From assembly GCA_035557715.1 (NCBI GenBank), contig DATMDQ010000016.1, positions 568 to 64,567 on the forward strand: a stretch of 64,000 nt of DNA, written 5' to 3'. A program made the translations under genes and the position numbers. The notes beneath the pieces are model-generated. The model was not told the DNA's origin. It made no database searches and saw only the letters and a list, made by a program, of their open reading frames with translations. Below, in pieces: positions 6,657 through 48,816 of the stretch. The DNA comes from Gemmatimonadales bacterium (GTDB lineage: Bacteria; Gemmatimonadota; Gemmatimonadetes; Gemmatimonadales; GWC2-71-9). The number at the start of each line of letters is the position of its first letter. Positions within the stretch are counted from its first letter, which is position 1.

Positions 6657-7775
6657 ATGACACATATCGAACTAGGCCTGGACACGTTCGGCGACGTCAC
6701 CGTCGACGCCGAAGGACGCCCGAAATCACACGCACAGGTCCTCCGCAACGTCGTTACCGAAGCCGAGCTGGCCGACCGGGTCGGCGTTGACTTCTTTGGC
6801 GTCGGCGAGCACCATCGCCCCGACTTTGCCATCAGCGCCCCCGAAGTGCTCCTTGGCGCCATCGCCGGGCGCACCGAGCGCCTCCGCCTCGGCACCGCCG
6901 TCACCGTCCTCAGCTCCGACGACCCGATCCGGGTCTACCAGCGTTTCTCCACCCTCAACGCCGTCTCGAACGGGCGGGCCGAGGTGATCCTGGGCCGGGG
7001 CTCGTTCACCGAATCGTTTCCGCTGTTCGGCTACTCGCTGGACGATTACAACGTCCTCTTCGACGAGAAGCTCGCGATCTTCGCGGCACTGCGGGATGCC
7101 GACCGCAACGGCCAGCCGGTCGGGTGGAAGGGAACCGTGCGTCCGCCAATCGAGGGTGTGCGAGTCTATCCGCCGGTGGAGAATCCGCCGCTCAGCACCT
7201 GGGTGGGAGTCGGAGGCAGCCCGGAGTCGGTGGTCCGCGCCGCGCGCTACGGCTTTCCGCTGACGCTCGCCATCATCGGCGGTGACCCGCGGCGGTTCAA
7301 GCCCTACGTCGAGCTCTACCACCGGGCCCTCGCTCAGCTAGGGCATGGAACGCTGCCGGTGGGCATTCACTCGCCGGGGCACATCGCGGAAACGGATGCC
7401 CAGGCGCGCAAGGAGCTGTGGCCGGCCTACCAGGTCATGCGCAACAGAATTGGTGCCGAGCGGGGGTGGCCCCCGACCAGCCGGGCCGAGTTCGACCACG
7501 AGATCGCCGAGGGGTCACTGTATGTTGGGTCGCCCGAGACCGTGGCCCGCAAGATGGCCGCGACGGTGCGCGCCCTGGGCGCGTCCCGGTTCGATCTCAA
7601 GTACAGCGCAGGGACGCTGGGACACGACCTGCTGCTGCGGAGCATCGAGCTGTATGGACGGGAAGTCATACCTCGCGTGCGGCAGTTGCTGGGGGAAGCG
7701 AGTCATCCCGAGCAGAGCGCTCGAAATTACTCACGGTTGCCTTCAGCGCCACCACTGCGCGCTCCTTCGCCTTAG
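6657..7775 (+). CDS. LLM-class (luciferase-like) flavin-dependent oxidoreductase
   Basis: MTHIELGLDTFGD...FFGVGEHH...LGTAVTVLSS...GRGSF are typical of the luciferase-like monooxygenase family. Start chosen at 6657. The 3' end converges on and overlaps uvsE. Confidence 0.85.
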   Translation: MTHIELGLDTFGDVTVDAEGRPKSHAQVLRNVVTEAELADRVGVDFFGVGEHHRPDFAISAPEVLLGAIAGRTERLRLGTAVTVLSSDDPIRVYQRFSTLNAVSNGRAEVILGRGSFTESFPLFGYSLDDYNVLFDEKLAIFAALRDADRNGQPVGWKGTVRPPIEGVRVYPPVENPPLSTWVGVGGSPESVVRAARYGFPLTLAIIGGDPRRFKPYVELYHRALAQLGHGTLPVGIHSPGHIAETDAQARKELWPAYQVMRNRIGAERGWPPTSRAEFDHEIAEGSLYVGSPETVARKMAATVRALGASRFDLKYSAGTLGHDLLLRSIELYGREVIPRVRQLLGEASHPEQSARNYSRLPSAPPLRAPSP

Positions 7776-8688
7776 CCTCGACATCCACCGTGATGGTCCG
7801 ATCCAGCCAGAACTCGGGAAAGTCCGCCGGATCGATGTAGTCGGCATGGGCCCTCGGGTTGGGCGACTCCCACCCGTCCCTGGGTGACGAGATGTGCGTG
7901 TACGGCTCGCGGTCTCCCCAGGTGGCAAACGACTGCTCGGTTGCCTCTTCGACGGAGAGCCCGTCGCCCAGGCAGCGGTGATGATGGACGTCGTAGACCA
8001 GCGGCACGCCGGAGCGCCGGCACAGCGGCAACAAGTTTCGGGGTGTGAAGCACCGGTCGTCGTTCTCCAGAGCCAGCCGCCCACGAGCCCTCGGTGACAG
8101 GAGCTCGAGTCCCCGTTCCAGTCGCTCCACCGCAGCCGGAACTCCTCCGCCCGCACCTCCCGCATGCACCACGATCACGTCCGCCCCGACCAGCTCGGCC
8201 ACCTCCGCCTGCAGCTCCAGCTCCTGCACCGCTGACTTCACCACCGGCTCCCGCTCGGAGTTGAGCACCACGAACTGGTCGGGATGAAGACTGAGCCGCA
8301 CATCGTAGGCTCGCGCCAGCGCACCGGCCCATTCATATGCTCCGGCGATCCCACCCGAGCGATCGAGATCGTCCAGGGTGTATCCGCTTTGGGGGTGAGT
8401 GGCGAGTGGCAGTATCTGACTGGTCATGCGAAAGGCGCCGATGCCCAGCTCGTGGCAGCGCTCTACGGCCGCAGCCAGGGCACCGGCGTTATGGCCGGCT
8501 ATATCCGCCAGATAAGCTCGGCGGTCTTCCGGCTCGAGTGTGGCGACATACCGATGAGTCGCCGCCCTGAACTGGATGGGTGAGTCGAGGAACTGACAGC
8601 AGAGGCCCCATCGGAGTCGGGAGTCGGGAGTCGGGAGCTGGGAGTCTCGAGCAGAAGCCAAGCGAAGGGCGTGCCCCGAGCTTGCCAA
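7666..8688 (-). CDS. uvsE: UV damage endonuclease UvsE/UvdE
   Basis: WGLCCQF...LSLHPDQFVVLNS...VVHAGG...LALENDD...VYDVHHHRC match the UvdE TIM-barrel family. The only in-frame canonical start upstream of the conserved core is TTG at 8688, so the first ~25 codons are encoded by the GGGAGTC repeat array. Confidence 0.85.
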   Translation of the reverse strand: MASSGHALRLASARDSQLPTPDSRLRWGLCCQFLDSPIQFRAATHRYVATLEPEDRRAYLADIAGHNAGALAAAVERCHELGIGAFRMTSQILPLATHPQSGYTLDDLDRSGGIAGAYEWAGALARAYDVRLSLHPDQFVVLNSEREPVVKSAVQELELQAEVAELVGADVIVVHAGGAGGGVPAAVERLERGLELLSPRARGRLALENDDRCFTPRNLLPLCRRSGVPLVYDVHHHRCLGDGLSVEEATEQSFATWGDREPYTHISSPRDGWESPNPRAHADYIDPADFPEFWLDRTITVDVEAKAKERAVVALKATVSNFERSARDDSLPPATAAREV

Positions 8689-8764
8689 ACGAATCTCTAC
8701 CTGTGGAATGACACCCTCCTCGACTTCGTGACCCCTAGCTCCTGACTCCCGACTCCCGACTTCC
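8612..8764. repeat. Inverted arrays of a tandem heptamer (GGGAGTC x~5 at 8612-8650; GACTCCC x~3 at 8737-8764)
   Basis: Read directly: cggagtcgggagtcgggagtcgggagctgggagtc ... agctcctgactcccgactcccgacttcc. The arms are reverse complements (~24/26) separated by ~90 nt. Confidence 0.9.
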
Positions 8765-9891
8765 TAGAGCAGCTTGACGATCCGCTCTCCCACGAAATAG
8801 CCGATCACGGCCACGCCCAGCCCGACCAGGAACATGTCCAGGCCACTCCGGAACACGCCGCGTCCGGTGAAGAAGCTGCGGGCGGCACCGACCCCGAAGT
8901 GGGAGATCATTGCCAGGGTGAACGAGGCCCAGATCGCCCACGGTCCGGTATCGAACAGGAAGGGGGCGACGGGGATGAACGCCCCGATGGCGGTGGCGGT
9001 CCCCGTGATCCAGGCTTCGCGCATCGGCGTGCTGGTCGCTTCACCGATCTTGAGCTCGTCCCGCACCTGCTCCTCCAGCGCCTTGGCCGGGTCCAGCATC
9101 ACCTGGGCAGCGATGGAATCGGCCTGCGTCGCCGGAATGCCCTTGGCCTGGTAAAGGAGGCTCAGCTCCTCCCGCTCGAGCTCCGGCATGAGCCTGATCT
9201 CCTCTTTCTCCATCGCAATCTCGTGCTCGAAGACCTCCCGCTCGCTTTTGGCCGCCAGGTAGCCCGAAGACCCCATGGACAGCGCGTCGGCGACCATTCC
9301 CGCCAGCCCGGCCACCACGACCGCGTGCTCCGCCGCCTGGAGATTTCCCTGGGCGCCGATCATCCCGGCCACCAAACCGAAGTTGGCGGTCAGTCCATCG
9401 TTGAAGCCGTAGACCAGGTTCCGGAGGAAGCCGCCGGCCCCCGTCTTGTGCCATGGCTCGCCCGAGGTCCCGCTCATCTGGGTCAGGGTTTCCGCGTGCT
9501 CTTTCGACTCCTTGGCCAGCCGGAGAGCGGTAGGCCCTACCGCCCCGTCGGGCTCGCTCTGGTACAGGTTCAGGTAGCCTTTGACCTCACGACCCTCCTC
9601 CTGGAGCAGCATCGGAAGAAGGACGCCGCTGCCCAGCCGGCGGGCCAGCCAGGCCCTGAACCGGGCTCCCCGGGTGGGCGAGGGCACCGCCAGGGCGTGT
9701 CCGTTCTCGGCCAGGAGCTTCCGCCACATCTCGACGTGACGATCTTCCACCGAGGCCAGCTTCCGGTAGATGTCCGCCTTCCCCGGGTCTCGCTCGGCCC
9801 GGGCCAGCTCCCGGTACAGGAAGGCTGCGTCGGCCTCATCCTCCAGGTGGTGGAGCCAGGTATGCGGGGGGGACGGGGGGGCTGAGGTCAT
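8764..9891 (-). CDS. VIT1/CCC1-family iron/manganese transporter with N-terminal ferritin-like domain
   Basis: N-terminal ferritin-like helix pair (FLYRELARAE...EDRHVEMW). C-terminal VIT1 motifs FNDGLTANFGLVAGM and membrane helices. Confidence 0.85.
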   Translation of the reverse strand: MTSAPPSPPHTWLHHLEDEADAAFLYRELARAERDPGKADIYRKLASVEDRHVEMWRKLLAENGHALAVPSPTRGARFRAWLARRLGSGVLLPMLLQEEGREVKGYLNLYQSEPDGAVGPTALRLAKESKEHAETLTQMSGTSGEPWHKTGAGGFLRNLVYGFNDGLTANFGLVAGMIGAQGNLQAAEHAVVVAGLAGMVADALSMGSSGYLAAKSEREVFEHEIAMEKEEIRLMPELEREELSLLYQAKGIPATQADSIAAQVMLDPAKALEEQVRDELKIGEATSTPMREAWITGTATAIGAFIPVAPFLFDTGPWAIWASFTLAMISHFGVGAARSFFTGRGVFRSGLDMFLVGLGVAVIGYFVGERIVKLL

Positions 9892-9905
9892 GAGGGGAAG
9901 ATAAA

Positions 9906-9989
9906 GGGGGAAGCGGTGAGCGGTGAGCGGTAAGCAGGGACCAGAGAAGAGAGCGAGTCATTGCGAGGTGGCCCCGCTCACCGCTTACC
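9906..9989. repeat. Inverted arrays of a tandem heptamer (GCGGTGA/GCGGTAA at 9906-9938; complement at 9971-9989)
   Basis: gggggaagcggtgagcggtgagcggtaagcaggg ... gccccgctcaccgcttacc. The arms are ~15/16 complementary. Located in the divergent region between VIT1 and the ECF sigma gene. Confidence 0.85.
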
Positions 9990-10040
9990 TTAAATAGACC
10001 CCCGCGACCGTCGGGCGGCCTCCCGCATCCTTAACGCACG

Positions 10041-10595
10041 ATGACTGGGACCCTGCTGATGGATTCCTCGCTGCTCGCTAATGCCGAAGCGGTCGTCGCT
10101 CGAGCCAGAGCGGGCGATACCGAGGCACTGGGCGAGCTGTATCGGGCGTTCGAGGTGCCGGTGTACAACCTGGCCCGCCGGATCTGCCGGACAACCGAGG
10201 ACGCCGAGGACGTGCTGCAGGAAACCTTCTTTGAGGTGTGCCGGAGCATCGGCCGCTACCGGGAAGAGGGTAGCTTGTGGGGCTGGATCCGGACCATCGC
10301 CGCCAGCAAGGCGCTCATGCGTCTCCGGCGCAACAAGTACCGCGAGACCGATGAGCTGCATGACGAAGCGGTAGGCCACAAGCGCGAAGAAACCCACCTC
10401 CGCATGGACCTCGAAGCCGCTCTCGAGCGGCTTTCGGAAACGTCCCGAGCCGTCGTCTGGCTCCACGACGTCGAAGGCTATACCCACGAAGAAATCGCCA
10501 ACATGATGGGCAAGACCCCAAGCTTTTCGAAGTCCCAGTTGTCGCGGGCCCACGCCCGGCTGCGCACCTGGCTCGGCGAGGAGATGATTCCATGA
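10041..10595 (+). CDS. ECF-type RNA polymerase sigma-70 factor
   Basis: Region 2 (DAEDVLQETFFEV...WGWIRTIAASKAL) and region 4 (EGYTHEEIANMMGKTPSFSKSQLSRAHARLR). 4-nt overlap with the downstream anti-sigma gene. Confidence 0.9.
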   Translation: MTGTLLMDSSLLANAEAVVARARAGDTEALGELYRAFEVPVYNLARRICRTTEDAEDVLQETFFEVCRSIGRYREEGSLWGWIRTIAASKALMRLRRNKYRETDELHDEAVGHKREETHLRMDLEAALERLSETSRAVVWLHDVEGYTHEEIANMMGKTPSFSKSQLSRAHARLRTWLGEEMIP

Positions 10596-12425: not shown

Positions 12426-12448
12426 GCGAAAAGTCGGGAAGACGGGAA

Positions 12449-12485
12449 GGGCGGGAAAGAGGTGGGATTCTCTTCCCGCCCTTTT
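12449..12485 (+). terminator. Intrinsic terminator after the glsB-like gene (between convergent genes)
   Basis: Stem GGGCGGGAAAGAG (12449-12461) / CTCTTCCCGCCC (12470-12481, one bulge), 8-nt loop, then TTTT (12482-12485). Confidence 0.55.
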
Positions 12486-12497
12486 CGTGTCCTTCCC

Positions 12498-14240
12498 TTA
12501 CCGCCCCACGGCCTTCAGGCCCGCCCTTCCCGTCCTTCCAGCCTTTCCCGCCTTTCCCGGATGCACCTGCCGCGCCAGCTCCCCGAACATCGCAAAATCG
12601 AGACTCTGGGCCCCGTCGCTCATGGCTGCGGCCGGGTTGGGATGCACCTCCACGATCAGCCCGCAAGCGCCAGCCGCCAGCGCTCCCAGACTGAGCGGAA
12701 TGACGATCGAGCGTATCCCTGCCGCATGGCTGGGGTCGACGATCACGGGCAGGTGGGTCCGCTCGCGAACCAGGGCGACCGCGTTCAGGTCGAGGGTGTG
12801 CCGGGTAGCCCGCTCGAAGGTTCGGATGCCCCGCTCGCACAGTACGACGTTGGGATTGCCTTCGGCCAGGACGTATTCGGCTGCCCCCAGCCATTCCTCG
12901 AAGGTCGCACCCGCACCCCGTTTGAGCAGCACCGGCTTGCCGCTCCGGCTGGCCGCCCGAAGCAGGCTGAAGTTCTGCATGTTGCGGGCGCCGATCTGGA
13001 GCATGTCGGCAAAATGCGCGACCACCGGGACTTCTTCCCAGCTCAACACCTCAGTGACGATCGGTAGCCCGGTCTTGTCCCGGGCGTCGGCCAGGTACCG
13101 GAGTCCTTTGACGCCGAGCCCCTGAAAATCGTAGGGCGACGTTCGAGGCTTGTACGCGCCTCCTCGGAGCATGTCGGCTCCGGCCTGCGCCACCGCCACC
13201 GCCGTCTCGAGGATCATCTCCTCGCTTTCCACCGAGCAGGGCCCGGCGATCAAAACCGGTTCGCCCCCGCCGAATCTCAGGCCCCGAACCTGCACCACCG
13301 TCCCCTCCGGATTCCGGCGGCGGTCCACCAGGGGAACGGAAGGCTTCTCCACCCGGTGGGCCGGTGGCGGCACCGGAGCCGAGAGGCGGGAGCCTTCGGT
13401 CCAGGCCTCGTAGCTCCCCAGCACGATAAGCTTGGCGGCCAGGGCCTCGATCTCCTCCAGGGCCTCCGAGACCCGCGGGTCCTGGGCAGAGCCCTCCACG
13501 TCTACATAGAACCGGTAGGTCCAGGGAGCCGAGCGCTCAGGCCGCGACTGAAGCGCCATCAGGTTGACCCCCCTGGCTCCGAACGCCTGGAGCGTCAGGG
13601 CAAGCATGCCGGGCTTGTGGTCAACCAGGACGATGAGCGAGGTCTTGTACCGGCTCGCCCCGGGTGTCCGGAAGGAGTCGGCGACGTCGGCGCGGGTGAA
13701 GGTGAGAAAGCGGGTCTGATTGGTGGGGTCGTCCTCGATCCGCTCGGCCAGGGCCGCGAGGCCGTGGGCGTCGGCGGCCGGTCTCGCGGCGATAGCAGCC
13801 CAGGCCGGGTTCTTCTCCTGCGCCACTATTTCGGCGCTCCCCGCTGTATCCCAGGCACTGACCAGCTCGGCATCGGGAAGGTGCTCCGATAGCCAGATCC
13901 GGCACTGGCCCAGCGCCACCGGATGGGAGAGGACCCGGCGGATCCCGGAGAGCGGCGCTCCCGGCAGCGCCATGATGGTGTGGTGGACCGGATGGAGGAT
14001 CTCATGCGTCAGGTGGAGCGTGCCGTCGCCGAACGCCTCGTGGAGCAGATCGTAGGTGGTTGTGACCGACCCGATGAGGGAGTTCTCGATCGGTAGACAG
14101 CCGGCCTCGGCGCGGCCCTCGCGAACTGCCGCCACCACGTCCTTCACGTCACGGCAGGGCAGGGCTTCCAGGTCCGGCCAGCGGCGCCGGGCCGCGGCTT
14201 CACTGAAGGATCCGTGAGAACCCTGAATGGCTACACGCAT
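12498..14240 (-). CDS. Fusion protein: prephenate dehydratase (with ACT domain) + type I-beta 3-deoxy-7-phosphoheptulonate (DAHP) synthase
   Basis: Start ATG at 14240 (MRVAIQGSHGSFSE...). PDT catalytic and ACT domains (KTSLIVLVDHKPGML...YRFYVDVEG). DAHPS barrel (VLIAGPCSVESEE...GGAYKPRTSPYDFQGLG...KRG...DPSHA). The C-terminal GKAGKAGRTGRAG tail is encoded by a repeat array. Confidence 0.9.
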   Translation of the reverse strand: MRVAIQGSHGSFSEAAARRRWPDLEALPCRDVKDVVAAVREGRAEAGCLPIENSLIGSVTTTYDLLHEAFGDGTLHLTHEILHPVHHTIMALPGAPLSGIRRVLSHPVALGQCRIWLSEHLPDAELVSAWDTAGSAEIVAQEKNPAWAAIAARPAADAHGLAALAERIEDDPTNQTRFLTFTRADVADSFRTPGASRYKTSLIVLVDHKPGMLALTLQAFGARGVNLMALQSRPERSAPWTYRFYVDVEGSAQDPRVSEALEEIEALAAKLIVLGSYEAWTEGSRLSAPVPPPAHRVEKPSVPLVDRRRNPEGTVVQVRGLRFGGGEPVLIAGPCSVESEEMILETAVAVAQAGADMLRGGAYKPRTSPYDFQGLGVKGLRYLADARDKTGLPIVTEVLSWEEVPVVAHFADMLQIGARNMQNFSLLRAASRSGKPVLLKRGAGATFEEWLGAAEYVLAEGNPNVVLCERGIRTFERATRHTLDLNAVALVRERTHLPVIVDPSHAAGIRSIVIPLSLGALAAGACGLIVEVHPNPAAAMSDGAQSLDFAMFGELARQVHPGKAGKAGRTGRAGLKAVGR

Positions 14241-16636: not shown

Positions 16637-16650
16637 GTTTCCTGCGATCG

Positions 16651-16686
16651 ACGCCCGTCGGCATTTCGCCGACGGGCGTTTTGCTT
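16651..16686 (+). terminator. Rho-independent terminator
   Basis: Perfect 12-bp stem ACGCCCGTCGGC (16651-16662) / GCCGACGGGCGT (16668-16679), 5-nt loop, then TTTGCTT. Confidence 0.8.
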
Positions 16687-16829
16687 GTGACTGTTATTGT
16701 TAGTTGTTACGGTTCTTCCGTTCTGCGCTGTGTTGTTTTTCGGGCTTTCGTGCTTACGGGCTTTCGTGTTATTCAGTCTCCGTCCGCAGTGAATGCCTGC
16801 AACCCAATTACCTCCTCGAGCAAGCGTGC

Positions 16830-22445: not shown

Positions 22446-23888
22446 CTACGGCCTCGCGCCGCCCGTAGGCTGGGTAGTCTGTTGTTGCATTCCTGGCACC
22501 GCCCCACCTCCCGTGATCCGGTTCATGCGCTCCCGCGATTCCTGCTGCGACTGCACCAGGCCCGCGCTCGGCAGCACCAGCACCGAGTCGGACGCGGTCA
22601 GCCCCTCGATCACCTCGCTGTAGTCCAGGTCGGTGAGCCCGGTCCGGATCCACACCGGGGTCGGCTTACCACCACGGTTTACAAAGACGATGTAGCGGGC
22701 GCCCATCCCTTGCGGTGTCCTGGCGACCCGCCCTCCCGGGCGCCGGCGCTGGGGGTCACCACCGGCCGCCGGGGCTGCAGCACCCAACGACGCCCGACCG
22801 GCCGTGTCTCGCCGCCCCGCTGCCCCGCTGTCTCGCTGCCCCGCTGCCCCGCTGTCCCGCTGTCCCGCTGCCAGTTGCTGCTGGACCGCGTCAGGAGACA
22901 GCCCCAGCACCTGGGCCGCCGATCCAACATCCCGCTGCGTGCGCAGCGCCGCATTGGGAACGGCCAGCACACTGTCCCGGCGCCCGACATGGACCTCGAC
23001 CTCAGCATTCATTCCCGGGCGGAGGAGGCCGTCCTTGTTGTCGATCCGGACCAGCACCGGAAACATGGTGACGTTCTGCTCGGTGAGGGCCTGAGGCTCG
23101 ATCTTGAGCACCGTGCCCTGAAATGGACGGTTAGGAAAAGCATCCACCGTCACGGTGGCGCGTAGCCCCGGCTGGATCTTGCCGATGTCGGTTTCATCCA
23201 CCAGGGTACGGACCTGGACCAGTCCGAGATCGGCCATCTTGAGCAGCACCGTGCCGCCCCCCACATCGTTGGTGGGCGAAGAAATGACCTGGCCCCGCTC
23301 GACTTGTTTCTCGATGATGGTGCCGCTGATCGGAGCTCGAACGTTGGTGTCGTCCAGCTGGTCCTTGGCGTTGTCGAGCGACACCCGGGCCCGAATGACC
23401 TCGGCATTGGCGTTGGCATAGTCGAGCAGGGCCTGCTCGTGTTCCTGCTCGGTAATCGACTGTGACTTGAACAGCTCGTCGGCGCGGCGCTTCTGGGAGC
23501 CGGCGTTGGTGAGGCGGGCCTGCGCCACCTCGAGGTCGGCCTGGGCCTGCGCCACGGCGTTCTTTGGAATGCGCGGGTCCACCCGGACCATCAGATCGCC
23601 CCGCTTGACGGCCTGGCCGGTTTCCACGGCAAGATCGAGGATTTCGCCCGAGGCCTTGGATTTCACTTCGACGGTGGTGTCTGGCTGGATCGAGCCGGAG
23701 GCCTGGGCGGACACGACGATGTCGCGGTGTACAACGGGAAGGGACTGATAGGTCGGCGGCAGCGTTTCCTTCTTGCACGCTGCCACAAGCACCAGCCCAA
23801 TGACTGTCGTCCTCCGCAACGCGAAGGAGCCGGAACGCGGCTTCGGTCCCTTCGTTCCGCTCAAGGTGACACCCCTATTACAGATCAC
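22446..23888 (-). CDS. macA: Efflux periplasmic adaptor (HlyD/MacA family) lipoprotein with a low-complexity insert
   Basis: Lipobox VLVAAC, a coiled-coil hairpin and a beta-barrel domain. The insert [22 protein letters not shown] is encoded by an octamer repeat. Confidence 0.85.
22815..22870. repeat. In-CDS tandem octamer repeat (YCYCGCTG x7 on the + strand; CAGCGRGR on the coding strand)
   Basis: Read directly: ccccgctg ccccgctg tctcgctg ccccgctg ccccgctg tcccgctg tcccgctg. Three units equal 24 nt, encoding the 8-aa repeat AAGQRDSG. Confidence 0.9.
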
Positions 23889-46542: not shown

Positions 46543-47213
46543 CGGACCAGATCCACCGGTGGTGGGGAGGTGGCGAGAGTGCTCACCTCTGAGCGTTGCG
46601 GGACCAGCACGCCGTCGGCTGCCTGAGGGAGAGCTCGCGGTACGGTGGAGACTCCATGGAGAAAGTGATCGAGCAGGCGATAGCCGTGCTCGGTCAGCAC
46701 CGACTCGGGATGGAACTGCACTCCGTAGACGGGATGCTCGACGTGCTGCACCGCCATGATCTCGCCATCCTCCGACTTGGCCGTGATAGTGAGGGAGGCC
46801 GGCACCGAAGCCGGGGCAATCACCAGCGAGTGATACCTCGTGGCCAGAAACGGGGTGGGCAGGCCGGAAAACAGTCCAGTGCCGACATGATGGATGCGGG
46901 AAGTCTTGCCGTGCATTGGGGCGCCGGCCCGCAGGATCTCCCCGCCGTAGGCGGCGCCGATACACTGGTGACCTAGACAGACGCCGAGAACCGGAATCGA
47001 CGGCCCCAGCTGGCGGACCACCTCGGTCGAGATACCGGCTTCCCTGGGCGAGCACGGCCCGGGGCTGATCACGATGTGGCTGGGCGCCAGGGCGCGAATC
47101 CCGTCGATGTCGATCGCATCGTGGCGGCGGACCAGCGGCGTCTCACCCAGCTCCCGGACGTAGCGGGCGAGGTTGTAGACGAATGAGTCGTAGTTGTCGA
47201 TTAGTAGAATCAT
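46539..47213 (-). CDS. pabA: Glutamine amidotransferase component II of aminodeoxychorismate/anthranilate synthase
   Basis: MILLIDNYDSFVYNLARY...GVCLGHQ...FHPES (Cys-His-Glu triad GATase-1). Confidence 0.85.
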   Translation of the reverse strand: MILLIDNYDSFVYNLARYVRELGETPLVRRHDAIDIDGIRALAPSHIVISPGPCSPREAGISTEVVRQLGPSIPVLGVCLGHQCIGAAYGGEILRAGAPMHGKTSRIHHVGTGLFSGLPTPFLATRYHSLVIAPASVPASLTITAKSEDGEIMAVQHVEHPVYGVQFHPESVLTEHGYRLLDHFLHGVSTVPRALPQAADGVLVPQRSEVSTLATSPPPVDLVR

Positions 47214-47295
47214 CAGAGTCGCCAGTCACCAGCCATGGGTCCCATCACGCAGAGCTCACCTAGACTGGCGACCGGCGACTGGCGACCGCCGACTG
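47214..47295. repeat. Inverted repeat with a tandem heptamer GGCGACY (array 47264-47295; partner 47214-47234)
   Basis: cagagtcgccagtcaccagcc ... gactggcgaccggcgactggcgaccgccgactg. The array spans the pabB stop and encodes its SAVASRRSPV tail. Confidence 0.8.
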
Positions 47296-48816
47296 ATGAC
47301 TCTCCACCAACGTCTCAATCAGCCCACGCGCCTTGTCCAGCGTCTCCCGGTACTCCAACTCTGGGTCGGAATCGGCCACAATGCCGCCGCCGGCCTGGAA
47401 GTATACCTGTCCCCCGAGGGCCAGATACGTCCGGATGACGATGCTGGTATCCATGGCACCGGTGGCGCTCACATAGCCGATCGAGCCGCAATACACCCCT
47501 CGCTGGGTCGGCTCCAGCTCCGCGATGATCTCCATCGCCCGTACCTTGGGTGCTCCGGTGATCGACCCGCCGGGGAAGGTGGCGCGGATGAGCTCCACCG
47601 CTCCCGATCCCGGCTCGATCTCACCCACGACGGTGGAGACCAGGTGATGCACCGTCGGGTGATGCTCCAGTGCGAAGAGCTCGGGAACTCGAACCGAGCC
47701 CGGCCGGCATACCCGCGAGAGATCATTCCGCAACAGGTCTACGATCATCACATTCTCCGCCCGATCCTTCTCACTCTCGGCCAGGGCACGCCCGAGCGCG
47801 GCGTCATGCATCGGCCCCAGGCCGCGGGGCCGGGTTCCCTTGATGGGCCGAGTTTCGATGCGCCGGCGGTCCTCATCCAGACGGAGGAAACGCTCGGGGG
47901 AGGCACTGAGGACCGCTACCTCGTCGAAGCCGAGATAGGCGGCAAACGGCGCGGGGTTCAGGTGTCGGAGTCTCTGGTAGAGCTCGAAGGGAGGCTCGTC
48001 TGACCGGCACTGAAACCGCTGGGAGAGATTGGCCTGAAAGATGTCGCCGGCCAGGATGTACTCCCGCACCCGCGCCACCGCCTCGAGGTAGGCTCGATGG
48101 GTAAAGGTCGAGCGAAGGCCAATCTTCTCCGCCCCCCCGATGCCCATGACCGGGTAAGAAGGGACAGCTGGGCTGCGGGGCAGCGGGGCAGTGCGTGAGG
48201 CCTGTCGCGCCGATGCTGCCTCGCCGCCCACCCGCCCGTGCGCGGGTACCCGCCCCACCGTCCGTCCCCCCAGCCGCTCCCGCACCAGGTCCATTCGCTC
48301 CCGCGCCCGCCGGGCCTGAGCCTCACCGCTCTCGGGAAGGCCAGTCGAGATCAGCCACGCGGTGCCGATCCGATGGTCCCACGCGATCACCCAGTCGTAG
48401 AGGCCGAGCACCACATCGGGAACAGCCAGATCGTCGTACCGGGCGCGGGGAAGTCGCTCCAGCACGGCGCCCCAGTCGTACCCGATGTATCCCGCGATGC
48501 CTCCCTGAAACGGAGGGAGCCCGGGCACCGGCTGGGTCGGCTGAGCAGGGAGCAGCGCCCGGGCGACACCCAAGGCATCGCCCTCTACGGGAGTCCAGTG
48601 ACCGCCTGGGAGGCTCCGGATCTCGGTGTCGGGTCCTTTGCTGCGAACCACCTGCAACGGATCGGCCGCAAGGAAGGAGTACTGGGCATCGGCATGCTGA
48701 GTGGCCGCACTGTCGAGGAACAACACGTAGGGAAGATCGAGAAAGCGAGCGCAGACTTGGGCGGGGTCGTCCGTACGGCCGAGCGGCTCAACCAGCGGCG
48801 GAAAACCTGTGGTCAT
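47260..48816 (-). CDS. pabB: Chorismate-utilising enzyme component I, most likely aminodeoxychorismate synthase
   Basis: Chorismate-binding domain (PIKGTRPRG...ENVMIVDLLRND...FPGGSITGAPK.RAMEII.ELE). PabB versus TrpE cannot be separated by eye. Context (RFAP synthase needs pABA) favours PabB. Confidence 0.75.
   Translation of the reverse strand: MTTGFPPLVEPLGRTDDPAQVCARFLDLPYVLFLDSAATQHADAQYSFLAADPLQVVRSKGPDTEIRSLPGGHWTPVEGDALGVARALLPAQPTQPVPGLPPFQGGIAGYIGYDWGAVLERLPRARYDDLAVPDVVLGLYDWVIAWDHRIGTAWLISTGLPESGEAQARRARERMDLVRERLGGRTVGRVPAHGRVGGEAASARQASRTAPLPRSPAVPSYPVMGIGGAEKIGLRSTFTHRAYLEAVARVREYILAGDIFQANLSQRFQCRSDEPPFELYQRLRHLNPAPFAAYLGFDEVAVLSASPERFLRLDEDRRRIETRPIKGTRPRGLGPMHDAALGRALAESEKDRAENVMIVDLLRNDLSRVCRPGSVRVPELFALEHHPTVHHLVSTVVGEIEPGSGAVELIRATFPGGSITGAPKVRAMEIIAELEPTQRGVYCGSIGYVSATGAMDTSIVIRTYLALGGQVYFQAGGGIVADSDPELEYRETLDKARGLIETLVESHQSAVASRRSPV

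What the first reader, a model, noticed from the sequence alone, without database searches (positions are those of the whole stretch)
8612..8764. Inverted arrays of tandem GGGAGTC heptamers bracketing the uvsE start: hairpin versus G-quadruplex-capable element
At 8612-8650 the sequence is (c)GGAGTC GGGAGTC GGGAGTC GGGAGCT GGGAGTC. At 8737-8764 lies the reverse complement, AGCTCCT GACTCCC GACTCCC GACTTCC (~24/26 complementary), about 90 nt away. Each strand therefore carries one G-rich arm with four or more GGG runs spaced by 4 nt, a canonical G3N4 quadruplex pattern, plus a complementary C-rich arm that could compete by forming a long hairpin. The element lies between the VIT1 stop and uvsE. 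The 5' arm is translated as the first ~25 codons of UvsE (DSQLPTPDSRL), because no canonical start exists downstream of it.
Basis: seen in the sequence. Interest (0 to 1): 0.6.

Follow-up and report, generated by a model that had tools for sequence, protein, structure and literature searches.

The report
Heptamer-armed hairpin inserted before uvsE
The two mirror-image runs of a 7-base repeat between the VIT1 and uvsE genes are real and form one long hairpin-type insert. It is one of about 200 in this soil Gemmatimonadales genome, split two formerly overlapping genes, and is defined by arm pairing rather than by G-quadruplex potential.

Summary
Window 8613-8650 and 8726-8764 are inverted arrays of GGGAGTC-type heptamers: 36-nt arms, 89% complementary, with a 75-nt loop.

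It is one of 194 inverted array pairs in this 3.2-Mb Gemmatimonadales MAG. Tandem arrays are about 14 times more frequent than in Markov simulations. Neighbouring arrays are inverted 159 times and direct once. In 190 of 194 pairs the G-rich arm is 5'.

Relatives show the ancestral state: the VIT1 stop and the uvsE start overlapped (GTGA). The roughly 155-bp element is present in at least three lineages of the genus and absent in their sisters. Its loop is flipped between the window and one relative.

The insertion removed the uvsE start. The only canonical in-frame starts left are two TTGs in the loop, so the C-rich arm is translated.

G-quadruplex potential is incidental. Only 20% of arrays have four G3 runs, and this element has them on one strand only. 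Arm length is the same for units without G-runs.

No U-tract, promoter or Rfam family was found, and sense and antisense RNA folds are equally stable.

The closest published relative is the Xanthomonas GGGAATC inverted arrays (Rehm 2015). All six PF05635 genes of the genome sit in such hairpins. Function and origin remain inferred.

The parts
8726..8764 (-). 5' arm on the sense (minus) strand. It is G-rich: GGAAGTC GGGAGTC GGGAGTC AGGAGCT AGGGGTC. It begins with the G of the VIT1 TAG stop codon.
   Evidence: inverted repeat I1. It has no canonical four-G3 motif on this strand.
8651..8725 (-). 75-nt loop (core). It is unique in the genome and is homologous to the loop in relative L002, but inverted relative to the flanking genes. 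It contains both candidate TTG starts and a GGAGG motif (reverse complement of 8715-8719).
   Evidence: BLAST of the core finds no other copy in G000. It matches L002 at 81% over 53 nt in the opposite orientation relative to uvsE. No match to the core was found elsewhere in 41 related genomes.
8613..8650 (-). 3' arm on the sense strand. It is C-rich: GACTCCC AGCTCCC GACTCCC GACTCCC GACTCC. It is translated as UvsE residues about 14-26 (RDSQLPTPDSRLR) if a loop TTG is used. On the + strand it is the G-rich arm with four GGG runs.
8764..8766 (-). VIT1 stop codon (TAG), directly abutting and overlapping the first heptamer.
8686..8688 (-). First in-frame TTG, the candidate uvsE start, 27 codons before the G of GLCC. 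It lies in the loop.
8659..8661 (-). Second in-frame TTG, 18 codons before the G of GLCC. It lies in the loop.
7666..8613 (-). uvsE (UvdE, PF03851) from the first conserved residues (RWGLCCQF) to the stop. The gene is intact.
   Evidence: Pfam 2e-50. Homologues align from residue about 25. Junction alignment.
8764..9891 (-). VIT1-family gene (PF01988) upstream of the element.

Best explanation
The feature is one copy of a lineage-specific class of foldback (hairpin) elements. Each has a G-rich tandem array of a 7-9-nt unit, a short non-conserved loop, and the complementary C-rich array.

**Origin at this site.** About 155 bp of DNA was inserted exactly into the junction where, ancestrally, the VIT1 stop and the uvsE start overlapped (cTGTGAtcc: GTG start, TGA stop).

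**What defines the class.** It is arm-to-arm complementarity with a fixed polarity: the G-rich arm is 5' on both strands. The arms change unit sequence together over evolutionary time, and the loop can be flipped by recombination between the arms.

**Status of each step.**
- Shown: the insertion, the class membership, the arm pairing and the loss of the ancestral start.
- Inferred: in RNA or in unwound DNA the element folds into a roughly 30-bp stem. G4 folding of the + strand arm is at most a side property.
- Inferred: the insert uncoupled uvsE translation from VIT1. UvsE can now be made only by initiating at a TTG (or another non-ATG codon) in the loop and reading through the C-rich arm, which adds an N-terminal RDSQLPTPDSRL tail.
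- Inferred: the element has no site-specific host function. It behaves like a selfish or neutral structural insert tolerated only at gene boundaries.
- Unknown: the generating mechanism.
For: **Structure.** 36-nt arms are 89% complementary, with fold z-scores of -5.5 and -5.6.

**Class.**
- The genome has 682 arrays against 44-50 simulated.
- Adjacent arrays are inverted 159 times and direct once.
- Of 194 pairs, 190 have the G arm first. The loops are unrelated: only 14 of 158 cluster, and those only through a nested repeat.
- With a crude gene caller that% of the genome coding, 20% of heptamer-array bases are called coding.
- The G arm starts within -3 to +6 nt of the upstream stop codon at 85 of 170 gene ends, and more than 10 nt away at only 7.

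**Insertion.**
- Seven relatives have the 8-nt junction CTGTGATCCGCTGGGG with overlapping stop and start. Six have a 118-245-nt array element at exactly that point.
- On the VIT1+UvsE tree the empty state occurs in both major clades. Filled states fall in at least three lineages, each next to empty sisters. The genus survey gives the same mixture.
- The same pattern holds at a second site, window 47213-47323, where same-genus genome G004 has an ATGA overlap.

**Loop flip.** The core matches L002 only in inverted orientation.

**Concerted arms.** Orthologous elements at window 9892-10040 and 12431-12559 carry different units in L001, L002, L003 and L005 (GTGAGCG, GTGAACA, GTAAACG). In each genome both arms changed together.

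**Start loss.** Only two in-frame TTGs are left. Every filled relative likewise has an in-frame start in its loop and an open frame through the C arm.

**Against G4 as the key property.**
Against: - Folding in vivo and use of the TTG are therefore inferences.
- No mobility machinery, target-site duplication or donor copy was found.
- Loops are unique, which is unlike classical MITEs.
- Related unit sequences (GGGAGTC, GGGAGCT) occur at this same junction in lineages separated by empty sites. This could mean one old insertion with several precise losses rather than repeated gains.
- Elements are depleted between divergent genes (6 observed, about 14 expected) and enriched between convergent genes (27 observed, about 14 expected). 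In G004 plain hairpins or a terminator sit where the window has arrays, or the reverse. Both observations fit a host 3'-end function.
- A mirrored order of variant units in the two arms is not supported genome-wide.
- The gene calls used for the statistics are home-made.
Confidence: 0.7

Rival explanations
1. G-quadruplex element. The G-rich arms fold into G4 structures in DNA or RNA and regulate transcription or translation of VIT1 and uvsE. The complementary arm serves only as a competitor.
For: The + strand arm has a canonical (G3N4)x4 motif. The almost identical Xanthomonas unit GGGAATC forms G4 in vitro (Rehm 2015). The modal copy number is about 4.
Against: - The sense-strand G arm lacks four G3 runs.
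- Only 20% of arrays genome-wide have a canonical motif, and 66% of pairs have none.
- The G3 run is not conserved within this unit family: the first G is A or T in 46 of 107 units.
- Arrays without G-runs have the same copy number and length.
- Orthologous elements switch to G-poor units such as GTAAACA while keeping arm complementarity.
- A roughly 30-bp duplex partner 75 nt away should out-compete a three-tetrad G4.
Confidence: 0.06
2. Host-functional RNA hairpin. The element serves as a U-tract-independent terminator, an insulator, or a 3'-end stabiliser of the VIT1 mRNA. It sits flush with the stop codon so that terminating ribosomes interact with its base.
For: - Pairs are enriched between convergent genes and depleted between divergent genes.
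- The G arm starts within a few nt of the stop codon at half of the gene ends examined.
- In G004 a plain 14-bp hairpin sits where the window has an array hairpin, and G004 has an array hairpin where the window has a canonical terminator.
- T is mildly enriched in the first 5 nt after the C arm.
Against: - No U-tract: a T4 run follows 15 of 386 arms, and none follows this one.
- Sense and antisense RNA folds are equally stable in 86 co-directional pairs (44 against 41, p = 0.5).
- The element was inserted inside a translationally coupled gene pair that is intact in many relatives.
- Sites turn over within the genus.
- uvsE stays intact downstream in all filled lineages.
Confidence: 0.2
3. Purely local origin. 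The arrays arose in place by replication slippage and template switching, without any insertion event, and spread to fill the spacer.
For: - There are 188 different canonical units.
- Units change rapidly at orthologous sites.
- The outermost units incorporate the stop codon and resemble the ancestral junction: TGA|GTC... and ...GAC|TCCGCTGGGG against the ancestral TGATCCGCTGGGG.
Against: - The ancestral junction had no spacer at all, yet the element carries a 75-95-nt loop unrelated to either flank.
- The same unit family (GAGTCNG) occurs in 43 arrays at unlinked sites.
- Adjacent arrays are inverted rather than direct 159 to 1, and 190 of 194 pairs have the same polarity. Simple slippage does not predict either.
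Confidence: 0.15

Closest known systems
G-rich heptamer repeats GGGAATC of Xanthomonas and GGGGA(C/T)T of Nostoc (Rehm et al. 2015, PLoS One, PMC4692102)
   Same: - Tandem heptamers, most often about 4 copies.
- Over-represented in non-coding DNA, lying within 50 bp after stop codons on the sense strand or before ORFs on the antisense strand, and rare between divergent genes.
- 70-75 convergent inverted pairs per genome, with the G-rich copy on each strand.
- The authors themselves raise hairpin-versus-G4 competition.
- The unit here (GGGAGTC) differs from GGGAATC by one base.
   Different: - This genome uses 188 canonical units of 7, 8 and 9 nt, many without G-runs, rather than one dominant unit.
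- Density is 21 arrays per 100 kb here. From the counts in the paper, Xanthomonas has very roughly 4 per 100 kb (my estimate).
- Insertion into stop/start overlaps, loop inversion and forced translation of an arm are not described there.
- The G4 criterion fails for most arrays here.
ORF-bearing intervening sequences of 23S rRNA (Coxiella burnetii IVS with S23p/PF05635 ORF; Warrier et al. 2016, PMC4990558)
   Same: A long stem made of terminal inverted repeats that include tandem heptamers of variable copy number. In this genome all six PF05635 genes lie in loops of G-first inverted arrays. One of them, at C86:16150-16596, has the same unit family as the VIT1-uvsE element.
   Different: The element studied here has no ORF in its 75-nt loop and lies between protein genes, not in rRNA. 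The IVS stem is cut by RNase III, but no RNase III gene was found in this genome or in 66 genomes of its class.
STRR (short tandemly repeated repetitive) heptamers of heterocystous cyanobacteria
   Same: Several families of intergenic tandem heptamers of unknown origin and function (from my own knowledge; the searchable papers mention them only in passing).
   Different: According to Rehm et al., Nostoc repeats are mostly solo arrays and only a few are inverted pairs. Here inverted pairing with fixed polarity is the rule.
REP/BIME/REPIN elements mobilised by RAYT (Y1) transposases
   Same: Abundant extragenic palindromes at gene ends, often as inverted doublets.
   Different: REPs are one conserved 20-40-nt sequence per family, not tandem arrays. 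The two Y1-transposase genes of this genome are flanked by other hairpin repeats, not by arrays.

Membership tests
Xanthomonas/Nostoc-type G-rich heptamer repeats (Rehm 2015) | Tandem heptamer unit matching GGGNATC / GGGGAYT | tested here: not met
   The unit is GGGAGTC (with variants GGGAGCT and AGGAGTC), one base off the pattern.
Xanthomonas/Nostoc-type G-rich heptamer repeats (Rehm 2015) | Over-representation in non-coding DNA near gene ends, with convergent inverted pairs | tested here: met
Xanthomonas/Nostoc-type G-rich heptamer repeats (Rehm 2015) | Four consecutive G3 tracts (G4-capable) as the rule | tested here: not met
   The + strand arm has them and the minus-strand arm does not. 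Genome-wide 20% of arrays have them, and 4 of 43 arrays in this unit family.
Xanthomonas/Nostoc-type G-rich heptamer repeats (Rehm 2015) | G4 formation of the oligonucleotide in vitro | not testable with these tools
   This needs CD or UV melting.
Intrinsic (Rho-independent) terminator | GC-rich stem-loop followed by a U-tract | tested here: not met
   The consensus scan finds none in 8300-10100. A T4 run follows only 15 of 386 arms genome-wide.
MITE | Copies share a conserved internal sequence, plus terminal inverted repeats and a target-site duplication | tested here: not met
   Loops are unique: 14 of 158 cluster, and only through a nested repeat. This loop has no second copy. No duplication is visible at the junction TGA|...|TCCGC.
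REP/REPIN-RAYT | One conserved palindrome per family, with the RAYT gene flanked by its own REPs | tested here: not met
   The two PF01797 genes are flanked by other hairpins and by no arrays.
IVS-type hairpin cassette (PF05635 ORF in a heptamer-array stem) | Long stem formed by inverted tandem-heptamer termini | tested here: met
.
IVS-type hairpin cassette (PF05635 ORF in a heptamer-array stem) | PF05635 (S23p / four-helix-bundle) ORF in the loop | tested here: not met
   The loop is 75 nt and has no such ORF. Six other elements of the genome do carry one.
IVS-type hairpin cassette (PF05635 ORF in a heptamer-array stem) | Excision of the stem by RNase III | not testable with these tools
   No RNase III gene was detected in G000 with PF14622, PF00636 or TIGR02191.
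Any Rfam RNA family | Match at the gathering score | tested here: not met
   Only far sub-threshold matches to generic miRNA-precursor hairpins were found.

The most novel reading that the evidence does not exclude
The VIT1-uvsE element would be a gene-less member of a family of foldback elements whose 'full' copies carry a PF05635 (Avd-like four-helix-bundle) gene.
- The copy at C86:16150-16596 has the same GAGTCNG heptamer arms.
- On this reading the protein recognises its own heptamer arrays and drives or maintains insertion at stop-codon junctions.
- Such elements could spread inside operons of this class of bacteria because the class has lost RNase III, the enzyme that would otherwise cut every such stem in mRNA.

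This would give a partner and a life cycle to the long-unexplained bacterial heptamer repeats (STRR, Xanthomonas GGGAATC).
Probability: 0.15. Interest if true: 0.8.

Novelty: new variant of a known kind. Interest (0 to 1): 0.5.

Why it matters
Intergenic tandem heptamers have been known since the cyanobacterial STRR sequences and were re-described in Xanthomonas in 2015. Their origin and role are still open.

This locus gives an unusually clean before-and-after comparison:
- The ancestral state is a 4-nt stop/start overlap with no spacer.
- The insertion boundaries are exact, and there is no target duplication.
- The loop can flip between the arms.
- Both arms change unit in concert.
- The host gene is forced to start translation inside the loop and to translate an arm.

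The comparison also shows, within one genome, that arm pairing and polarity are what the family shares, and G-quadruplex potential is not.

If a trans-acting partner (PF05635) or a permissive background (loss of RNase III) were confirmed, the class would become experimentally tractable.

For genome annotation, such elements explain mis-called starts and low-complexity N- or C-terminal tails in Gemmatimonadales genes.

Tried and rejected
- **Sequencing runs.** There is therefore no RNA-end, coverage or population-variation evidence.
- **Mirrored unit order.** A genome-wide test of whether variant units are mirrored in the two arms was negative: real and permuted scores were equal, p = 0.24. The mirrored GCT variant in this element is not claimed as evidence.
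- **Strand-specific RNA selection.** There is no difference in sense against antisense fold energy or G-U count.
- **Telomerase-like or RT-templated array synthesis.** The only reverse transcriptase is a group II intron maturase-type ORF with an internal stop. Rejected.
- **RAYT/REP link.** Rejected.
- **Rfam.** Nothing found.
- **Donor copy of the loop.** None in the genome or in 41 relatives.
- **Promoter or terminator consensus in or near the element.** None.
- **RNase III loss as the explanation for hairpin abundance.**
  - Inverted pairs were absent from 396 kb of RNase III-positive classes.
  - They were also absent from 400 kb of RNase III-negative families f6 and f7.
  - The loss is therefore at most permissive, and GC content confounds the comparison.
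- **Association between PF05635-cassette units and the most abundant unit families.** I judged it not significant given size-biased sampling. No formal test was run.
- **Gene calling.** My first gene calls (longest ORF) placed many arrays inside genes. This was largely an artefact of 5' extension through stop-free arrays. I replaced it with flank-based coding classification.
Full report
**1. Observation**

- Window 8613-8650 reads GGAGTC GGGAGTC GGGAGTC GGGAGCT GGGAGTC.
- Window 8737-8764 reads AGCTCCT GACTCCC GACTCCC GACTTCC.
- TRF reports both arrays.
- The repeat finder reports 36-nt arms (8615-8650 and 8726-8761), 89% complementary and 75 nt apart.
- The 165-nt stretch folds into one long stem. 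As RNA on the sense strand it reaches -91.8 kcal/mol (z = -5.55). As DNA it reaches -43.5 kcal/mol (z = -5.60). None of 200 shuffles folds as well in either case.

Both flanking genes are on the minus strand.
- The VIT1-family gene (PF01988) is at 8764-9891. Its TAG stop supplies the first base of the array.
- The UvdE gene (PF03851) has its conserved domain beginning at RWGLCCQF, around 8605-8613.

**2. It is one of a genome-wide class**

The window belongs to a 3.21-Mb MAG with 65% GC. All close UvsE relatives are Gemmatimonadales.
- TRF finds 682 arrays of period 6-10 with at least 3 copies, built from 188 different canonical units. Order-3 Markov simulations of the genome give 44-50.
- For period 7-9 and at least 3.5 copies the counts are 464 real against 6-13 simulated.
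- Neighbouring arrays less than 400 nt apart are inverted 159 times and direct once.
- With a slightly looser unit match there are 194 inverted pairs with gaps of mostly 10-170 nt. In 190 of them the G-rich arm is 5' and the C-rich arm is 3'. For a palindrome this holds on both strands.
- The loops are unrelated to each other. Only 14 of 158 cluster, and all of those do so through a nested high-copy hairpin repeat, GTCATCCTGAGCG..., which occurs 321 times in the genome.

Location was assessed with home-made gene calls, which are crude.
- Only 20% of heptamer-array bases lie in called coding sequence, against 90% of the genome called coding.
- Classifying the flanks by codon statistics gives 86 pairs between co-directional genes, 27 between convergent genes and 6 between divergent genes. 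Adjacent gene pairs in the genome as a whole are 76% co-directional, 12% convergent and 12% divergent.
- The G arm begins within -3 to +6 nt of the end of the upstream stop codon at 85 of 170 gene ends. It begins more than 10 nt away at only 7. In the remaining cases the ORF runs into the arm.
- Array density is the same in other Gemmatimonadales loci (22 per 100 kb) as in this genome (21 per 100 kb). It is lower in loci from other phyla (5.9 per 100 kb).

**3. What happened at this site**

VIT1-uvsE synteny is conserved across the order.
- In seven relatives (L001, L003, L007, L008, L012, L027, L028) the two genes overlap: ...CTG TGA TCC GCT GGG G.... The uvsE GTG start overlaps the VIT1 TGA stop, a classic arrangement for translational coupling.
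- In the window and in L002, L004, L009, L010 and L019, a 118-245-nt element of inverted heptamer arrays plus loop sits exactly between TGA/TAG and TCCGCTGGGG.
- L005 and L083 carry a shorter version.

A maximum-likelihood tree of VIT1+UvsE places the states as follows.
- The empty state occurs in both major clades.
- The window groups with support 100/99 with L001 (empty), L002 (filled) and L003 (empty).
- L009, L010 and L019 (all filled) are sister to L007 (empty).
- L004 (filled) lies elsewhere.

A DNA survey of 40 relatives gives the same mixture inside the genus. So the overlap is ancestral and the element is an insertion. Either it was gained at least three times, or it was gained once and lost precisely several times. 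I cannot decide between these.
- The units are related at this junction in all lineages (GGGAGTC, GGGAGCT).
- The outermost units incorporate the stop codon and the first uvsE bases (TGA|GTC... and ...GAC|TCCG).
- This fits either common descent or constraint from the coding flanks.
- No target-site duplication is visible.

The window's loop has no second copy in the genome or in 41 related genomes. It matches only the loop of L002 (81% over 53 nt), and there it lies in the opposite orientation relative to the genes. This is what recombination between inverted arms would produce.

A second site shows the same history. The element at window 47213-47323 occupies what is an ATGA stop/start overlap in the same-genus genome G004.

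**4. Arms evolve together**

At two other intergenic sites the orthologous elements persist in L001, L002, L003 and L005, but with different units. Examples are GTGAGCG in the window and L003, GTGAACA/GTAAACA in L001, and GTAAACG in L002 and L005. In every genome both arms carry the matching unit.
- Complementarity is therefore conserved and the unit sequence is not. Several of these units have no G-run at all.
- Against G004, sites turn over. Window elements correspond to empty sites, to a small hairpin or to a plain 14-bp hairpin. G004 has an array hairpin where the window has a canonical U-tract terminator.

**5. Hairpin versus G-quadruplex**
- Only the + strand arm of this element fits (G3+N1-7)x4. 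The sense-strand arm does not.
- Genome-wide, 135 of 682 arrays (20%) fit, and 128 of 194 pairs have no motif in either arm.
- In this element's unit family (43 arrays), the base before GGAGTC is G 60 times, A 39 times and T 7 times. Only 4 arrays have four GGG runs.
- Heptamer arrays with maximal G-run of 2 or less have the same copy-number mode (3-4) and the same median length (27 nt) as those with G3. The 'preference for four units' does not need a G4 explanation here.
- G4 formation by the + strand arm remains chemically possible but is not what the family shares.

**6. RNA-level function?**
- No U-tract follows the arms. A T4 run follows 15 of 386 arms, and none follows this one.
- There is no sigma-70-like promoter, no consensus terminator and no Rfam family.
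- In 86 co-directional pairs, sense and antisense RNA folds are equally stable (44 against 41, p = 0.5). G-U pairs number 346 against 309. Nothing points to selection on one transcript strand.
- The distribution at 3' ends and the flush position at stop codons are compatible with a terminator-like or stabiliser role. They are equally what one expects if insertions survive only at gene boundaries in a compact genome.

**7. Consequence for uvsE**
- The ancestral GTG start is gone.
- Between the VIT1 stop and codon +50 of the conserved domain, the only in-frame ATG/GTG/TTG codons are two TTGs in the loop, at 8686-8688 and 8659-8661. Any UvsE made must therefore carry about 13 residues encoded by the C-rich arm (RDSQLPTPDSRLR).
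- All six filled relatives also keep an in-frame start in the loop and an open frame through the arm, and uvsE stays intact in them. The gene evidently survives the insertion.

**8. Links to other elements**

Leads from earlier notes of this scan were tested here.
- All six PF05635 genes (23S-rRNA-IVS protein, Avd-like four-helix bundle) and the single PF13366 gene of this genome lie in 390-520-nt loops of G-first inverted arrays. Each has a different unit.
- The cassette at C86:16150-16596 uses the same GAGTCNG family as the VIT1-uvsE element.
- The published Coxiella IVS has the same design (28-bp stem, tandem heptamers, S23p ORF) and is cut by RNase III.
- No RNase III gene is detectable in this genome with three models. 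None is detectable in 66 genomes of its class, whereas 14 of 15 genomes of other classes of the phylum have one.
- Inverted pairs were also absent from 400 kb sampled from RNase III-less families f6 and f7. The loss is therefore at most permissive.
- The two Y1 transposases and the single group II intron RT are unrelated to the arrays.

**9. Comparison with the literature, and verdict**

The closest description is Rehm et al. 2015. It covers:
- GGGAATC heptamers of Xanthomonas, about 4 units per array and enriched near gene ends;
- 70-75 convergent inverted pairs per genome;
- an explicit hairpin-versus-G4 discussion.

I found no paper on such elements in Gemmatimonadota.

The present case is a new variant of that kind. 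It has many unit families including G-poor ones, fixed polarity, insertion into stop/start overlaps, a flipped loop and a translated arm.

Function and generating mechanism remain inferred. My best reading is a structurally maintained, selfish or neutral foldback insert (confidence 0.7 for the compound statement).

Noticed in passing
whole genome G000 and 80 genomes of the phylum: No RNase III gene was found (PF14622, PF00636 and TIGR02191 all negative) in this 99.7%-complete genome. None was found in 66 of 66 genomes of the same class, including single-contig genomes. In contrast, 14 of 15 genomes of other classes of the phylum have one. I found no paper stating this.
   Followed up: partly
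G000 C57:8373-8887, C92:13227-13784, C127:12732-13325, C86:25270-25835, C86:16150-16596, C121:49463-50009, C126:1512-1999: All six PF05635 (23S rRNA IVS protein / Avd-like) genes and the only PF13366 (PDDEXK_3) gene of the genome sit in loops of G-first inverted tandem arrays. Each has a different unit. The C86:16150-16596 cassette shares the GAGTCNG unit family with the VIT1-uvsE element.
   Followed up: partly
window 8607-8766 (minus strand): The whole element is open in the VIT1 reading frame and is 156 nt long, a multiple of 3. A single TAG therefore separates VIT1 from UvsE, and read-through would give a fusion protein. L009 (132 nt) and L005 (63 nt) share this property. Three of seven is compatible with chance.
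   Followed up: no
window 8707-8719 (minus strand): The only Shine-Dalgarno-like motif in the loop is GGAGG (reverse complement of 8715-8719). It lies 5 nt before an in-frame ATT (8707-8709) and 27 nt before the first TTG. It might mark a non-canonical uvsE start.
   Followed up: no
window 47213-47323: A second array element (GTCGCCA-type heptamers) sits in what is an ATGA stop/start overlap in same-genus genome G004. Here the downstream ATG is kept and the upstream ORF seems to run into the 5' arm, giving a C-terminal extension.
   Followed up: partly
window 16640-16700 against G004 (L109, stretch 67447-67558 of the joined G004 pieces): The window has a canonical U-tract terminator after the stop codon. 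At the same gene end G004 has an array-armed hairpin (GGCCGGAC units) starting at its TAG. The reverse pattern (window array hairpin, G004 plain 14-bp hairpin) occurs at window 12431-12505.
   Followed up: partly
genome-wide; e.g. loops in L004, L009, L019 and G000 C3:16831-17002: A separate high-copy hairpin repeat, GTCATCCTGAGCGAAGCGAAGGATC..., has 321 matches at up to 2 mismatches in G000. It is nested in the loops of some array elements, including the VIT1-uvsE elements of L004, L009, L010 and L019. It has no Rfam match.
   Followed up: partly
window 22805-22872: A solo C-rich 8-mer array (CGCTGCCC, 7.9 copies) has no clear inverted partner. About 300 of the 682 arrays are solo or have degenerate partners.
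   Followed up: no
L009:5007-5122 and L019:5010-5124: A c-di-GMP-I riboswitch (RF01051, above the gathering score) lies just downstream of uvsE in two relatives.
   Followed up: no
window 7666-7775: The uvsE 3' end overlaps the convergent luciferase-like monooxygenase ORF (6555/6657-7775, + strand) by 110 nt.
   Followed up: no
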